Assembly: GCA_039715015.1 (NCBI GenBank)
Contig: JBDLIE010000019.1
Location: 1 to 50,515 of the forward strand
Source of the DNA: Thermodesulfobacteriota bacterium
GTDB lineage: Bacteria; Desulfobacterota; Desulfobulbia; Desulfobulbales; SURF-16
Direction of reading: 5' to 3'
Length of the DNA stretch: 50,515 bases
How positions within the stretch are numbered: the stretch's first letter is position 1; every line of letters begins with the position of its first letter. Positions 21,001-27,000 of the stretch are shown here, in pieces. A program made the position numbers.

Positions 21001-24000
21001 CCACCTCTAACAAGGTGGGTTTATTTGGCCAGGCAAACAACGGCACTGCATTTCTTGATGAGGTTGGCGAACTCTCTGCTCTTACCCAGACCAAACTCTT
21101 GCGCGTTCTTCAGGAGCGTGAATTTAAAAGGGTGGGCGATACCCAGATTACTAAAATAAACGTCCGCATTGTTTCAGCGACCAACCGTAACCTTGAGGAA
21201 GAAGTCGTCAATGGAAGCTTTCGCGAGGATCTCTTTTACCGATTGGCTGTAGTGCCTATCCGTATGCCTCCCCTTCGTGACAGAAAGGGTGATGTACCTC
21301 TGCTTGTGGATTTCTTCCTCAAAAAATACGCGAAGATTTTTGACAAGGATGTTGTGGAATTATCCTCCTATGCCATGGAGGTTCTCATGAGCTATGATTA
21401 CCCAGGCAATGTCAGAGAACTTGAAAATATCATCGAAAGGGGTGTAGCTCTTTCGACCTCCAACATCATTCTGCCCGAAAGCCTTACCCTTTCAAGCCAC
21501 AAGAGGAAGTCTTCAGAAAAATTCCAAGATGATATCCCCGAAAGTTTAGTGGGAGTCCATAGTCAAGAAGAGCTATTTGAGGAAGGCCTGGAAAAGATAC
21601 TGGCCGGTTTTGAAAAAAAGCTGCTTATTTGTGCCCTGGAAAAGACAAATTATTCAAAAATGCGGGCCGCAGATCTTCTTAAAATAAGCTTCCGCTCTTT
21701 CCGCTATAAACTGAAAAAGTATAACCTCTAAGAGATACCTCATATATCATCCCACCTATGGTAAGAAATGCTCTCAAACGGTTAGTTTATTCATTAAAGC
21801 CTCTTAATACAGAGGAGGATATTCATCTTCGCAGGCAGCTGCTCTGGGTCCTCTTTTTCAGGGTCGTACTTCTCACCTTTCTCTTGGGGATAATTGTTTT
21901 TTTCCAGTATAAAGATGGGACAGATTATCAGATTATCCCCATCCAGCTGGTGGGTCTTTTCGTTGGCGGCGTCTACCTCCTCACCATTGGCTCCGCTTTT
22001 CTTATAAGGTTTGTCCCCTACTTCAAACCCTTTACATTCATTCAGATATCCCTTGATGTGCTACTCACCTCCATTCTGGTTTTCTTTAGTGGAGGTAGCC
22101 AATCCTTTCTTATAATTATCTATTTCTTCCCCATAATCAGCGGCGCTACACTTCTCCTGCGCCGTGGCTCCTTATTTATGGCGGCCCAGGCCTCATTGAT
22201 GTATGGGGCTGTTTTGTGGATTGAATATAGCGGGACCATGGCTGTCTATTTCCCATCTAGCACCCTTGACGATTTCATGATGACTTTGCCCATTTTTTCT
22301 ATTTCCGGGCTCTCCTTTTTCCTCACCGCCTTTCTCAGCTCGTTCATGGCTGAACGCCTCAAAATCACGGAAACAGCCCTCTCCCAAACCATTCTTGATC
22401 GCGACAGGCTCGCTGTCCTATACAGGCAAATCTTAGCGGACATTACCACAGGGATCATCACCATCAATGGTCAAAAGATTATTACTTCTTTTAATCACGC
22501 CGCTGAAAAAATAAGCGGTTTCTCCTCACAAGAAGCTGTGGGCAAATCTTTGGCGGAGCTGATGCCGGAGATTGTGGCCGACCTTCGCGGCGAAATAAGA
22601 CCCTTGGCGACTTTAAGGCGAAAAGATGGAGAAAAGATCCCGGTGGGCTACTCATGGACGCCGCTGAACATGCCTGGGGAAAAAGAAGATTACCGAGTCT
22701 ATACCATGCAGGACTTGAGTCTGATCAAGAAAATGGAATACCAGGTACGCCAGGCGGAAAAAATGGCTGCCATTGGCCAAATGGCTGCAGGCATAGCCCA
22801 TGAATTCAGGAATCCTCTGGCCGCAATGAGCGGTGCCGCCCAAATTTTAGAAAAGGATTTCGTCTCCGACCCTACCACCCAGGCCTTAATGAATATCATT
22901 GTCAGAGAGAGTGACAAGCTGGAGGCAACTATCCACGGTTTTCTCGATTATTCCAGGCCTATGGAGCCGGTTATGGACTGGTTTTCGTTGAAGAGTCTAA
23001 CTGAGGAGGCCATCAGTATGGCTCACAATGATCCTCACTGGCATGATGTTGAAATCCATATCAACATTCCCGACGCCTTGGATTGCTGGGCAGATGCCAA
23101 TCAGATGCGCCAAGTGCTGACCAATCTCATCACTAACGCTGTCCATGCCATGGTTCACGTAGAAAAACCGCTCCTCATCATTGCGGCGCAGGAAGAAGAT
23201 CATGATGGAAAGCCACGGCATGTTATAGAAATAAGCGATAATGGCCCTGGCATCCCAGCTCCACTCCTTGGCCAGATCTTTGACCCTTTTTTCACCACTC
23301 AAGAAAGTGGAACAGGCCTGGGGCTATCCATTGTTAACCAGATCATTGCAAGCCATGAGGGCACTCTGAAAGTCAACTCAGATACATCTGGCACCTCTTT
23401 TGCTATCTCCCTGCCCCTGCAATAGGGACATCTCAACATCAAGCTCCCCCCCCTTCTAACACAAACAGCCTGGCAATCTCTGTGAGAATTCGCTGAAATC
23501 AACGACCAAGAGCAATAAAGGTAAGACCGCAATAAACGAGAAGCCAACAGCAGGAGTAGTAGGCGCCCTGTTTTTGTTGGATATCATCAGAGCGGAGCAA
23601 GATAAGAGAAAAGACAAAGGTCAGAGGAAAGACAATACCTGCCCAAAAAGGCTGCACATAGCGAAGCATCTCCTGTAACCCCAGAAAAAACCACGGTCCT
23701 GGCCTGTGGAAAACGCCAAGAGAGTCGGGCTCCATGGGGGCCGGAAAGAGCAGGGAGAGAAGCATGGTAAAGGAGAGAAATAAAAAATGCTCTTTAAGGT
23801 GAGCCCGATATTTCCGGACATGATCCCAGCAGAGTATCCCCCAGACCACTCCCAGGCCAATAATATGATTTGCATAAACCCTTTTGAGGCCATCCTCAAG
23901 AACGGAAAAGAGCAAGGTGTTGAGAGCCGAGCCGACAAGGGGAACGGAAAGGCAGATATTCTCGGCAATAATGCCGGCATTCTCACCTGTTGCATCCCCC

Positions 24001-27000
24001 CGTAACACATAGCCGGTAAACAGGAGAAGTAAGGCCACAGGCAAACTAATCACCAGAGGTACCCATTTCCCCCAAGAAAGCTTCAGGTATGATTTATCGA
24101 TGAGGATAGCCAGGAAATGGGCTAAACAAAGAAGGAAGAAGAGTTGGCTGGAATAAAAATGGAGACTGCGCCAAAAATCACCAAAAGGCACCAGAGCATC
24201 CATGGCACTGGTTGAAAAAAAAGGCGTGGCAAAATCATACTGAAGAGCAATAACTACCCCTGAAACCACAGAGACATAAAGGGAAACGAGACAAAGTTCT
24301 CCCCATTTAACTTCGGTAATTCTTGTTAGAAAATTCTGGCTGCTACACATTATAAGAAAAGATCGTTACACACTATTTTCATCCGGAAGAACCAAGAGAC
24401 TGAGGTCTTACACTGTCACTATGTACCCTTTACCTTCGCCAAGGGCCTCTACTTTAAATTGAGCCAAATCTTTCTGGGCTGGTCCGGCAAGACGTTTGCC
24501 ATGGGGAGAAAATTTTGACTGATGACAGGGACAGATTAACTGCTTGTCTTTTTCGCTAAAATTGAGGCGGCAGCCTAAGTGGGTACAAGTTCTTGAAATA
24601 GCCCACGCCTCCTTTTCCGCCACAAAAAGGGCAAACTCAGGGTCAAGGTGGACATCGCCGATAAGGAGTTTTTTTTCAACCTTGATAAAACGAGGTTTCG
24701 CAGGAACATTAAAGCGGACAAAACGTAGGGCAGGATAACAAAGGATGAATCCTGCAAACAGTTTAAGCCAACTCCATCCCGAAGAGAGAAAATGGCGCCG
24801 TTCTCCTGGCCCCTCAGCTTTACGACCCATTACCACCACGAAGAAGGCGAACAAAGGTATCACGCAAGCCCCGTGTACCGGAAACCACATCAACCTTGCC
24901 GCGACTCATTACGGCAGAATCAGAAGCACCTCGCAAGTAGGCATCTTTCACAAAAGGAGACTTATTGCCGAAACCGTGACTCATATAACAACAATCCTCC
25001 CTAATGCCCGGGGTTATTTTCACCTTGACCAAACTCAGTGAGCGAAAGCCGTCTCTATTTTCGAGACGAACCTTATCGCCATCATCAAAACCCTGTTGTG
25101 CAGCAATGGACTCGCCAACCCACAGTTCGTTTTCCGGCACTTCGTGATTTAACCAGGTAAAACCTGCGGTTCGCGTTAACGAGTGAGCTGGGCAGCGGCC
25201 ATAAAGTAAACGCAGATAGCCCTCAGGGGCCTGGGCAGGCGGTTCATAGGAAGGAAGAGGCGAAAAACCGTTATGCAACAACCAGAATGAATGAAATTCA
25301 ATTTTGCCAGAAGGTGTGGGGAAATCTGCCTGCCGGGGCCCTGGCAATGGCCCGGCAAAAAGATCATCAACCCCCTCACCGTCAGAATCGAAGCTCATAG
25401 TTGCTTCTGGATCCTTTGCCTTATTTTTCAAAAGCAAGCCCCCAGCTTTTTTCATCAAATCAAGGGAACTTCCTTGAGAGGCCAGGGAATCATCGACATA
25501 ATTTTGCACCCTGTTTTGCGACAGCAATTCACCCTGCCCACACTCCTTAGCAAGATCTTGAACTATCTGATAAGGGTCACGACATTCATGGGAGGGATTA
25601 ACCACCGGGAAACGACAGCCAGTCATGATTTGATCACCTGTATCCCAGGTGTGCAGGTCATCCATCCGCTCAAGAAAAGAGCATTCCGGTAAAATAATAT
25701 CAGCATACAGGGTAGGCTCTGTGGGGAGCAGATCGCAGGCAAAAATAAATTCAGCGTTTTTAAGGGCAGTCATAGTTTTGTAGGGAGCTATTTCAGACTG
25801 GAGAGGATTTTGTCCCCAGATACCAGTGACCTTAATGTTGCCGCTGCCGACCTGATGAATGAGACGGGCAAAGGAGAGAGGTTTGCGCTGAGACTCAAAA
25901 TCAAACTTCTGGCCAGAATCTGGGAGCCGACTGCCCAATAATGCAGATAAAATGGCCTGCGCCCTCACCCGGTCTACATCGGCGCCATACCAGCTCAGAT
26001 GACTGCCGGGCATAATAACGGTGCGTGAACCAGCATGGGACATTGTTTCAACAGCGAGACGAATCATCTCCTCCGGTATATCAGTAATTTCAGAGGTCTT
26101 GGCCAGTGTAAAGGGCGCCGCAACCTCGCGCAACTCATCAAGACCGACAACCTGCTCGGCGAGAAAGGGATTAAACAACTCCTGGCTGAGGATATAATTT
26201 ATCCAGCCTAAGAGTAGAGCGGTATCGGTGCCCGGCCTGATCGCCAAATAGTGATCGGCTTTGGCGGCCATGGCAGAAAAGCGAGGGTCAATAACAATGA
26301 GTTCTGAACCCTTGCTCAAGAAATCACTCACCTGCTTGAGTTGAGAGACTTGGTTATTTTCACCGACGTGACACCCCATAAGAACAAGGCAGTCCGCATC
26401 GTTCATTGCAGGCAGATAGGATGGATCAGGCACACGACCAAACACGGTGCCATAGCCAAGCTCCCTGATTGCAGCAGAATGCATCTGGGACGAGTCATAA
26501 ATATGGGGACAGGAAAGCCCTTCATATAATTTCCGGATGAAAGAGGAGGAGCTGCTGCCACAAAGCAATGCCAATGATTCAGGACCAAAATTGGCATGGG
26601 CCTTCTTCATATGACTGCCGATTTCGGCAATGGCATCCTGCCAGGTAATTCGTTTCCAAGCCCCCTGCCCCCGAGGACCAACCCGTTTCATGGGATATTT
26701 AAGCCGGTCAGGGGCGCCTAAAAGCTGGACGGAAGCCATGCCGCGGGCACACAGAGCATGACCATGGATAGGGCTGTTAGGATTACCATTCAGACGGATA
26801 TGGCCATTCTTGCTCTTTAAAGCAAGCATGGGACAACTAGCCTTGCACATGCCGCAAATTGTCGGTATTTTTTCAACTTCCCGCCTTGGGTAGCTGCTGG
26901 GAGAGGCCTTGCTCAGAGAAGGATTGGTCTGATTGAAGACGAGAGATAAGGCTGAAAGAGACCCACCCTTTAATAAGGTACGGCGACTACACTTCACTTT

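What a model noticed while it worked through the whole genome (the two positions that open the first line are those of the whole stretch)
23499..26997. The genome's only Rieske/cytochrome b pair is an operon with a TAT-exported PsrA/PhsA-like molybdoenzyme
Three tightly packed genes encode a TAT-signal Mo-bisPGD catalytic subunit of the PsrA/PhsA kind (g01469, 725 aa), a TAT/anchor Rieske 2Fe-2S protein (g01468, overlapping g01469 by 11 nt) and a 283-aa bc-type cytochrome b with four haem histidines and a PGPWF (PEWY-like) Qo motif (g01467); no cytochrome c1/f, four-cluster PsrB or NrfD/PsrC lies beside them and there is no other Rieske or bc-type cytochrome b gene in the genome. Boldest reading: the 'partial complex III (PetAB)' ascribed to Desulfobulbales and cable bacteria passes electrons directly to or from this molybdoenzyme, i.e. 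a Q-cycle-capable quinol:sulfur-compound oxidoreductase built like arsenite oxidase plus cytochrome b. New w [...]
Evidence so far: g01469 C19:24820-26997(-), g01468 24408-24830(-), g01467 23499-24350(-). Pfam Molybdop_Fe4S4+Molybdopterin+Molydop_binding; Rieske; Cytochrome_B+Cytochrom_B_N_2; Swiss-Prot PhsA 26%/PsrA 25% full length, QcrB 27%, b6f Rieske 40%. N-termini MKCSRRTLLKGG and GERRHFLSSG; cyt b has H-x13-H and H-x14-H pairs and PGPWFF (sequences, call 99). Only Rieske/Cytochrome_B rows in pfam.tsv. Same order Mo-Rieske-cyt b in 5 of 5 related loci from Desulfurivibrionaceae/Desulfobulbaceae MAGs, 69-88% identity. neighbours.tsv: Cytochrome_B within 2 genes of Molybdop_Fe4S4 in at least 19 of 460 Desulfobulbales and 444 genomes overall, against 314 of 460 with a Rieske-cyt b pair. 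PMC13047784 (passages read, call [...]
(Added by a program. Inside this text positions count along the whole contig: contig position 1 is position 1 of the stretch shown here. "Call 12" and the like, gene names such as g00115 and contig names such as C1 are that model's own, and its searches are not shown. The text may have been shortened before it was handed on; [...] marks where a part breaks off. The agent that wrote the report below was given it as the finding of a first reader that could run no searches.)

Follow-up and report, generated by a model that had tools for sequence, protein, structure and literature searches.

The report
Molybdoenzyme gene beside Rieske/cytochrome b
A sulfur-bacterium genome keeps its only Rieske/cytochrome b quinol oxidase directly behind an unusual exported molybdenum enzyme; the pairing is old but often lost, so the enzyme looks like an optional add-on, not a fixed part.

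Summary
Window 23499-26997 (-) encodes a TAT-signal Mo-bisPGD protein (725 aa), a bc-type Rieske protein and a b6-like cytochrome b. These are the only Rieske and cytochrome b genes in a 99.99%-complete genome. No PsrB, NrfD or cytochrome c1 lies beside them.

The interpretation needs correcting:
- The three genes are the tail of a longer packed string; coaBC overlaps the Mo start by 11 nt.
- The Mo protein has the PsrA fold but not its active site. The Mo-ligand Cys is Ser174.
- Mo and Rieske each carry their own twin-arginine signal, unlike arsenite oxidase.
- Across the order the locus is leuA-asd-rsmD-coaD-[Mo]-Rieske-cyt b. I found the Mo gene contiguous with Rieske/cyt b in 23 of 401 genomes. 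It was missing in 37 of 37 loci read from the two largest families.
- The Mo gene also occurs without Rieske/cyt b (5 genomes). Three relatives keep deletion scars of it.

Best reading (0.42): an accessory periplasmic reductase for a fairly high-potential substrate, fed from menaquinol through Rieske/cyt b. Direct docking is unproven.

Published relatives in kind are haloarchaeal pNar and the Caldithrix Nap locus. Verdict: new variant of a known kind, moderate interest.

The parts
26987..28210 (-). coaBC (phosphopantothenoylcysteine decarboxylase/synthetase). Upstream co-directional gene whose stop overlaps the Mo start by 11 nt. Context, not part of the redox unit.
   Evidence: Pfam Flavoprotein + DFP, E 1e-72; coordinates.
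24820..26997 (-). TAT-exported Mo/W-bisPGD catalytic subunit, PsrA fold, 725 aa.
   Evidence: Pfam; T. thermophilus PsrA 2vpw E 5e-104; no NCBIfam model above its cut-off; dN/dS 0.05-0.10 against 4 close relatives, dS saturated.
26899..26997 (-). Twin-arginine signal peptide of the Mo subunit (SRRTLLK ... SKA). The cleavage site is inferred.
   Evidence: Sequence; R5 R6 invariant in 19 of 19 relatives.
26749..26856 (-). FS0 [4Fe-4S] motif: C48-x2-C51-x3-C55 ... C83.
   Evidence: Codons checked; invariant in alignments A1 and A3.
26476..26478 (-). Ser174 (TCT) at the position of the PsrA Mo-ligand Cys173.
   Evidence: Pairwise alignment to 2vpw; 21 Ser / 92 Cys / 1 Asn / 1 Gly / 1 gap among 116 homologues; codon.
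24408..24830 (-). bc-type Rieske [2Fe-2S] protein with an RR motif (R11 R12) and an N-terminal hydrophobic anchor; cluster boxes at 24522-24587.
   Evidence: Pfam Rieske; best NCBIfam hits are b6f PetC and QcrA, all below cut-off; alignment A2; codons.
23499..24350 (-). Cytochrome b: a b6-like four-helix core fused to a C-terminal part carrying GPWF (23688-23699). Haem His codons at 24159, 24117, 23865 and 23820.
   Evidence: Pfam; alignment to cytochrome b6 structures; invariant residues in A4; codons and hydrophobic stretches.

Best explanation
The Rieske protein and cytochrome b are this order's general two-subunit menaquinol oxidase (PetAB, no cytochrome c1). The gene in front of them encodes a soluble, TAT-exported Mo/W-bisPGD enzyme with the PsrA fold. 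It has lost the PsrB/PsrC partners and the PsrA active site (Ser for the Cys ligand).

Most likely it is an accessory terminal reductase. Menaquinol is oxidised at the Qo site of cytochrome b. One electron goes Rieske [2Fe-2S] -> FS0 [4Fe-4S] -> Mo, either by direct docking or through a periplasmic carrier. It reduces a periplasmic substrate whose potential lies above that of the Rieske centre (an S-/N-oxide or oxyanion, not polysulfide or thiosulfate). The second electron recycles through the two b haems.

Shown: gene content, motifs, conserved linkage, purifying selection, recurrent loss.
Inferred: electron path, direction, substrate class.

PetAB has a core role that does not need this enzyme.
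For: - Linkage. In a 401-genome sample of the order, 21 of the 26 Mo hits (E <= 1e-130) have cyt b just downstream on the same contig and strand. A 22nd is split by a contig end. Two further linked cases, G020 and G209, were found by reading loci.
- Mo and cyt b identities to the window fall together: 74/89% down to 40/48%.
- The 19 locus-type Mo proteins form one group (SH-aLRT 82, quick tree). It is separate from 29 chaperone-A-B type paralogues, which do carry TorD-like and four-cluster neighbours.
- The trio was relocated as a block. In G000 leuA-asd-rsmD-coaD sits on contig C3 without it.
- The enzyme looks active. FS0 cysteines and pterin-contact motifs are invariant over 37-100% identity, and dN/dS is 0.05-0.10.
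- No PsrB, NrfD, chaperone or cytochrome c gene is nearby, so some other electron donor is needed.
- Precedents: Rieske/cyt b genes inside the Nap locus of Caldithrix abyssi, proposed as its quinol-oxidising module (PMC5317091, passages); cytochrome b/Rieske feeding haloarchaeal pNar (PMC8400030, passage).
Against: - Mo occurs without Rieske/cyt b in 5 genomes (G025, G045, G145, G048, G021) and one metagenome contig, L157.
- Rieske/cyt b occurs without Mo in most of the order: cyt b in 312 of 401 genomes; 37 of 37 f16/f17 loci lack Mo.
- Deletion scars show the Mo gene is dispensable.
- Rieske and cyt b of Mo-less genomes are not distinguishable in the alignments.
- Each protein has its own TAT signal.
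- coaBC/coaD are packed as tightly as the trio, so overlap proves nothing.
- The ligand position varies (Ser, Asn, Gly) among relatives.
- A paper on D. dismutans calls an orphan PsrA lowly expressed (PMC12142623, passages). Its identity with this clade is not verified.
Confidence: 0.42

Rival explanations
1. Historical neighbours only. The Mo enzyme is a free periplasmic monomer that works with other redox partners (periplasmic cytochromes c or another quinol dehydrogenase). It merely sits in an old, tightly packed housekeeping string next to PetAB.
For: - The string leuA-asd-rsmD-coaD-[Mo]-Rieske-cyt b mixes unrelated functions.
- coaBC overlaps the Mo gene just as the Mo gene overlaps Rieske.
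- Mo persists without PetAB in 5 genomes, and PetAB without Mo in most.
- Deletion scars are present.
- Mo and Rieske have separate TAT signals.
Against: - The block stayed together through a relocation.
- It also stayed together over divergence down to 38-40% Mo identity in three families.
- No alternative partner gene is nearby.
Confidence: 0.33
2. One reading: a stable three-subunit complex built like arsenite oxidase plus cytochrome b, acting as a Q-cycle-capable quinol:sulfur-compound (polysulfide/thiosulfate-type) oxidoreductase, and explaining PetAB in Desulfobulbales generally.
For: PsrA is the best solved relative. A Rieske gene directly follows the Mo gene with an 11-nt overlap. No c1, PsrB or PsrC is present.
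Against: - The PsrA ligand Cys and the residues aligned with His145 and Arg332 are changed (residue roles recalled).
- The PhsA model scores 304 against a cut-off of 694.
- FS0 has four Cys, and AioA similarity is marginal.
- Both subunits carry RR signals.
- The Mo gene is absent at this locus in 37 of 37 f16/f17 genomes read.
- Sulfur couples lie far below a Rieske centre (recalled potentials).
Confidence: 0.1
3. The Mo subunit is a catalytically dead MopB-fold protein, as ActB of alternative complex III and QrcB are described. It would serve only as an FS0-bearing electron wire or scaffold on PetAB.
For: - The ligand position is Ser, Asn or Gly in different relatives.
- QrcB is among the NCBIfam hits: 115 bits, cut-off 440.
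- ActB is described as lacking Mo/W-bisPGD (PMC10100899, passages).
Against: - The pterin-contact motifs shared with PsrA (DPR, PGTDTA, WGQNP, ADIILPE..FLER, HGFG) are invariant or nearly so across 19 relatives.
- dN/dS is low over the whole length.
- Ser is a normal Mo ligand in DorA/TorA (PMC10100899 table).
Confidence: 0.08

Closest known systems
Polysulfide reductase PsrA of Thermus thermophilus (PDB 2vpw) and the PsrA/PhsA/SrrA family
   Same: Full-length similarity (E 5e-104), three MopB domains, TAT signal, four-Cys FS0 motif and pterin-contact motifs.
   Different: Ser174 replaces the Mo-ligand Cys173. His145 is deleted and Arg332 is Ser. No PsrB, PsrC or TorD-like chaperone gene is adjacent. 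It scores below the PhsA model cut-off. The genome has a separate chaperone-A-B paralogue at C5:62893-66596.
Rieske/cytochrome b genes inside the Nap nitrate-reductase locus of Caldithrix abyssi (PMC5317091)
   Same: That genome's only Rieske and cytochrome b genes, without cytochrome c1, lie in the gene cluster of a periplasmic Mo enzyme. They are proposed as its quinol-oxidising, possibly electrogenic module (passages).
   Different: There the Mo enzyme is NapA, with NapGH, NapM and an octahaem partner in the cluster. Here it is a PsrA-fold enzyme with no cytochrome c or NapGH beside it.
Archaeal pNar (haloarchaea; Ca. Methanoperedens) with Rieske/cytochrome b as quinol module
   Same: An outward-facing Mo enzyme is thought to be fed from the quinone pool through cytochrome b/Rieske proteins (PMC8400030 passage; PMC5244752 passage).
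   Different: NarG is Asp-ligated and has a NarH four-cluster subunit. The subunit names NarB and NarC are recalled, not seen in a call.
Arsenite oxidase AioAB (and iodate reductase IdrAB, recalled)
   Same: A MopB catalytic subunit whose direct electron partner is a Rieske protein.
   Different: AioA has a [3Fe-4S] cluster and no protein ligand to Mo. AioB carries the only TAT signal, and there is no cytochrome b. Here AioA matches 86 residues at E 6e-5, and the AioB model scores 40 against a cut-off of 96.
PetAB 'partial complex III' of cable bacteria and other Desulfobulbales (PMC13047784)
   Same: Orthologous by synteny: coaD-Rieske-cyt b, 48-66% cyt b identity. The paper places PetAB between quinol and periplasmic cytochromes c (passages).
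   Different: The paper does not mention a molybdoenzyme neighbour. That neighbour is confined to a minority of genomes.

Membership tests
PsrA/PhsA polysulfide/thiosulfate reductase catalytic subunit | MopB three-domain architecture with an N-terminal FS0 Cys motif and a TAT signal | tested here: met
   Pfam PF04879 + PF00384 + PF01568; C48/C51/C55/C83 and R5 R6.
PsrA/PhsA polysulfide/thiosulfate reductase catalytic subunit | Cysteine ligand to Mo (Cys173 in 2vpw; Cys listed for PsrA/PhsA/SrrA in PMC10100899) | tested here: not met
   Ser174 aligns with Cys173. Ser is conserved in the closest clade.
PsrA/PhsA polysulfide/thiosulfate reductase catalytic subunit | Adjacent four-cluster PsrB and NrfD-type PsrC subunits | tested here: not met
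   The neighbours are coaBC and Rieske. All five NrfD matches lie on other contigs.
PsrA/PhsA polysulfide/thiosulfate reductase catalytic subunit | Score above the curated NCBIfam PhsA cut-off | tested here: not met
   303.9 bits against a cut-off of 694.
Arsenite oxidase type Mo-Rieske heterodimer (AioAB) | Large subunit of the Aio clade with a [3Fe-4S] cluster | tested here: not met
   AioA matches 86 residues at E 6e-5. The arsenite_ox_L model scores 20 against 359. Four FS0 cysteines are present.
Arsenite oxidase type Mo-Rieske heterodimer (AioAB) | Only the Rieske subunit carries the TAT signal and the large subunit is co-exported (recalled) | tested here: not met
   Both proteins carry RR motifs: Mo R5 R6, Rieske R11 R12.
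Rieske/cytochrome b (bc-type) quinol oxidase | Rieske boxes CTHLGC / CPCH, including the two extra (disulfide) cysteines | tested here: met
   C82 H84 C87 and C100 C102 H103.
Rieske/cytochrome b (bc-type) quinol oxidase | Cytochrome b with four haem-ligand histidines on helices B and D | tested here: met
   H64/H78 and H162/H177 align with the cytochrome b6 ligands and are invariant in 17 of 17.
Rieske/cytochrome b (bc-type) quinol oxidase | PEWY-type Qo motif | tested here: inconclusive
   The variant GPWF is invariant in 17 of 17. Its equivalence to PEWY/PPWF rests on position and recall, not on an alignment to a solved subunit IV.
Rieske/cytochrome b (bc-type) quinol oxidase | A c-type cytochrome subunit (c1, f or dihaem) | tested here: not met
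   PF02167 has no match in G000. No CxxCH in the neighbouring ORFs of 21 related loci; the window's own ORFs were not scanned.
Stable Mo-Rieske-cyt b complex (any kind) | Physical association of the Mo subunit with the Rieske domain | not testable with these tools
   One structure-prediction job gave no verdict (see Tried and rejected). The full PetAB dimer plus Mo exceeds the size limit.

The most novel reading that the evidence does not exclude
The Mo protein docks directly on the mobile Rieske head in the place that cytochrome c1/f occupies elsewhere. This would give a three-subunit, Q-cycle-coupled menaquinol:oxo-substrate reductase with a Ser-ligated PsrA-fold active site. The trio would be the ancestral form of the Desulfobulbales locus, so the c1-less 'PetAB' of the rest of the order (cable bacteria included) would be what remains after the catalytic head was deleted.
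Probability: 0.15. Interest if true: 0.75.

Novelty: new variant of a known kind. Interest (0 to 1): 0.48.

Why it matters
The electron acceptor of the cytochrome-c1-less Rieske/cytochrome b pair of Desulfobulbales is an open point in current models of cable-bacteria and sulfur-disproportionator energy metabolism (PMC13047784).

This locus offers one concrete, testable client. It also comes with a natural experiment: genomes of one genus with and without the gene (g4: Mo found in G128, G153, G169 but not in G032, G116, G144, G217, G225), some still showing the deletion scar.

If electrons do pass from Rieske to the Mo enzyme, reduction of its substrate would be coupled to a Q cycle and conserve more energy than NrfD- or NapC-type routes.

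It also adds a PsrA-fold lineage in which the Cys ligand has been replaced by Ser more than once. That warns against annotating these genes as polysulfide or thiosulfate reductase.

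Tried and rejected
- Structure prediction of Mo (residues 40-725) with the Rieske soluble domain (46-140), using my own 19-row alignments. 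ipSAE was 0.00 in both runs; the tool's verdict was 'no answer' and controls were not run. This is not evidence either way.
- Public sequencing runs: no RNA holder listed. One DNA run holds the stretch and may be its source.
- Promoter/terminator consensus scan of 23000-29700: 4 promoter-like and 4 terminator-like sites, fewer than in shuffles (7.2 and 8.4). None on the minus strand was useful.
- 'Stops inside' the Mo matches of G110, G075 and G189 raised the idea of pseudogenes or selenocysteine. The ORFs are intact (713-739, 718-720 and 723 aa); the alignments simply ran past a start or stop.
- Looked for a Cys that would bind haem ci, as in cytochrome b6. The residue aligned two positions before b6 Gly37 is Lys15, so none is there.
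- Idea that Arg at the PsrA Arg332 position marks PetAB-less orphans. Broken by G020, which is PetAB-linked and has Arg.
- Metagenome scan for more Ser-type contexts: of 80 loci, only L119 (same organism as L103) has the trio and L157 is an orphan.
- Earlier notes of this scan: nothing near the place and nothing relevant by words.
- The genome search tallies for the long Mo query turned out to be lower bounds, because only 2 of about 10 first-look candidates were scored. G021, G020 and G209 were missed. I therefore read the stretch upstream of cyt b directly in 77 loci.

Full report
**1. What is in the window**

Six co-directional genes on the minus strand end at the finding:
- a nitroreductase-family gene (28703-29212);
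- a 157-aa protein with a lipoprotein-like N-terminus and no Pfam or NCBIfam family (28219-28692);
- coaBC (26987-28210);
- the Mo-bisPGD gene (24820-26997);
- the Rieske gene (24408-24830);
- cytochrome b (23499-24350).

A sigma-54 two-component pair lies convergent downstream (20355-23425, +). coaBC overlaps the Mo start by 11 nt. Mo overlaps Rieske by 11 nt. Rieske and cyt b are 57 nt apart.

PF00355 and PF00033 each match only here in a 99.99%-complete genome. There is no cytochrome c1 family match. The five NrfD genes are on other contigs.

**2. The molybdoenzyme**

Its best solved relative is Thermus thermophilus PsrA (2vpw, E 5e-104, two stretches covering residues 5-356 and 395-720). 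The FS0 cysteines (C48, C51, C55, C83) and the motifs it shares with PsrA around the pterins are invariant or nearly so in 19 relatives spanning 37-100% identity.

The residue aligned with the PsrA ligand Cys173 is Ser174 (TCT). His145 falls in a gap and Arg332 aligns with Ser332. That these three residues are catalytic is my recollection of the PsrABC structure paper, not something seen in a call.

Among 116 homologues of at least 600 aa, the ligand column holds 92 Cys, 21 Ser, 1 Asn, 1 Gly and 1 gap. Ser marks the window's clade. It also appears separately in G020-type proteins and in relatives of G048.

No NCBIfam model reaches its cut-off; PhsA scores 304 against 694. dN/dS against four close relatives is 0.05-0.10, like its neighbours, although dS is saturated. 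So this is a conserved, probably cofactor-binding enzyme that should not be called a polysulfide or thiosulfate reductase.

The genome has four other MopB enzymes. One of them is a chaperone-A-B paralogue of the type found in the next-nearest relatives.

**3. Rieske and cytochrome b**

The Rieske protein has an RR motif, a hydrophobic N-terminal stretch and both cluster boxes with the two extra cysteines. Its best, sub-threshold models are b6f PetC and actinobacterial QcrA, ahead of AioB.

Cytochrome b aligns with cytochrome b6 over residues 17-177, including all four haem histidines. It continues into a C-terminal part with an invariant GPWF. It lacks the b6 Cys that binds haem ci.

**4. Comparative genomics**

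The five closest loci share the whole neighbourhood, so they are not independent evidence. I therefore sampled 401 genomes of the order.

- Cyt b is found in 312.
- The Mo protein matches at E <= 1e-130 in 26.
- In 21 of those 26, cyt b lies just downstream on the same contig and strand. In G185 the two genes sit at contig ends. Four genomes (G025, G045, G145, G048) have Mo but no cyt b match or no adjacent one.

The Mo tally is a lower bound, because the tool scored only two first-look candidates per genome. Reading loci directly added G020 and G209 (linked) and G021 (orphan).

Pfam of the flanks shows that the order-wide locus is leuA-asd-rsmD-coaD-[Mo]-Rieske-cyt b. In the window's genus and in g5 and g11, the trio instead follows nitroreductase-lipoprotein-coaBC. 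In G000, leuA-asd-rsmD-coaD sits on contig C3 and is followed by another gene. So the trio moved as a block.

In the two largest families (f16, f17), 37 of 37 informative loci read rsmD-coaD-Rieske-cyt b with no Mo gene; one further locus was too short to tell. In the window's own family, ten further loci lack the gene.

Three Mo-less relatives keep scars in the spacer:
- G225 retains Mo residues 1-15 and 142-152 joined to 715-761, at 83% identity to a congener's protein.
- G089 retains about residues 683-725, at 56% identity.
- G061, in the coaBC context, has a weak remnant (38% identity, E 3e-4).

Outside the order, none of about 387 genomes of the phylum sample matched at E <= 1e-120. The same lower-bound caveat applies.

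A quick maximum-likelihood tree groups the 19 locus-type proteins (SH-aLRT 82) apart from 29 chaperone-A-B paralogues. It places the orphans among PetAB-linked proteins of other families. It puts the Ser/Asn, coaBC-context proteins on a long, fully supported branch. The careful tree search did not finish, and L024 is a very long branch.

**5. Reading**

The Mo gene is old at this locus and was inherited with Rieske/cyt b. It has been deleted many times while Rieske/cyt b stayed unchanged. In a few lineages the reverse happened. That pattern fits an optional client of a general-purpose quinol oxidase better than an obligate subunit.

The enzyme has no PsrB, NrfD, NapGH-like or cytochrome c gene at hand. 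That makes Rieske/cyt b the most economical electron source.

From recalled midpoint potentials, a menaquinol-oxidising Rieske centre lies well above the polysulfide and thiosulfate couples. It lies below or near DMSO, TMAO, tetrathionate, arsenate, selenate and nitrate. A Rieske-fed enzyme must therefore reduce something of the latter kind. The Cys-to-Ser change is at least compatible with S-/N-oxide chemistry, since Ser is the ligand of DorA/TorA (PMC10100899 table).

Substrate oxidation feeding quinone through a reversed Rieske/cyt b would need energy input and seems unlikely.

Whether electrons pass by direct docking is open. Separate TAT signals argue against a pre-assembled heterodimer of the arsenite-oxidase kind.

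**6. Literature**

- The D. alkaliphilus paper assigns nitrate reduction to napAGHD and does not mention Rieske (PMC5516251, passages).
- The D. dismutans paper notes a second, lowly expressed PsrA with no other Psr genes nearby (PMC12142623, passages). It may be the orphan homologue, but I did not verify this. Its supplements were not read.
- Precedents for Rieske/cyt b serving periplasmic or outward-facing Mo enzymes: the Caldithrix abyssi Nap locus (PMC5317091, passages); haloarchaeal pNar (PMC8400030, one passage); Ca. Methanoperedens (PMC5244752, passage).
- A reference list cites Campylobacter Qcr-dependent nitrate and TMAO respiration (seen only as a citation, in PMC6896113).

Six full-text searches found no paper describing a PsrA-like gene joined to Rieske and cytochrome b in Desulfobulbales. 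Subscription journals are outside that library.

**7. Verdict**

- Observation: confirmed.
- Interpretation: partly supported.
- Novelty: a new variant of a known kind. A Rieske/cytochrome b quinol module is genetically tied to a periplasmic molybdoenzyme, here a Ser-type PsrA-fold enzyme.
- Interest: moderate. Function and substrate are untested, and the feature does not generalise to most of the order.

Noticed in passing
window 26987-28210 (-); L103:2727-3251; G000 C3:38470-39000: The gene directly upstream of the Mo gene is always a coenzyme-A biosynthesis gene: coaD in the order-wide arrangement, coaBC after the relocation in the window's lineage. This may be coincidence, or selection for read-through from a constitutive operon.
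   Followed up: partly
window 28219-28692 (-): 157-aa protein with a lipoprotein-like N-terminus (…LSLNLSGC…) and no Pfam or NCBIfam family. It is 84-90% identical in close relatives and 41-53% in g5/g11, always between a nitroreductase-family gene and coaBC.
   Followed up: partly
window 20355-23425 (+): NtrC-type sigma-54 response regulator and a PilS-like 6TM-PAS histidine kinase lie convergent to cytochrome b. They are conserved in that position in 3 close loci (L004, L006, L007). A regulatory link to the trio was not examined.
   Followed up: no
L250 (G225) about 1220-1520; L240 (G089) 3874-4020; L104 (G061) 2700-2950: The spacers between coaD/coaBC and Rieske hold in-frame remnants of the deleted Mo gene. 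In G225 the signal-peptide start is fused to the last about 47 residues.
   Followed up: yes
L100:1140-3011 (-) (G045): A methyl-accepting chemotaxis protein with a NIT (nitrate/nitrite-sensing) domain lies two genes from the orphan Mo gene in a Desulfurivibrio-like genome.
   Followed up: no
G000 C39:3659-9598 (-): Another TAT Mo enzyme (799 aa) is followed by two tetrahaem cytochromes c, a TAT protein and an NrfD-family membrane protein. A Nap-like cluster with a tetrahaem protein lies at C13:21691-27110.
   Followed up: partly
L257 (G056) and rows for genus g45: G056 has cyt b in a 457-aa open frame with no Rieske, coaD or Mo detected in 4.5 kb upstream. Many g45 genomes show 370-375-aa open frames over cyt b. 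Possible fusions or rearrangements were not examined.
   Followed up: no
window 29593-30939 (+): B12-binding radical SAM gene, divergent from the string and conserved (87-88% identity) in two close loci.
   Followed up: no
For a 725-aa query, the genome search scored only 2 of about 10 first-look candidates per genome and missed true homologues of 39-40% identity (G020, G021). Tallies from such searches are lower bounds.
   Followed up: yes
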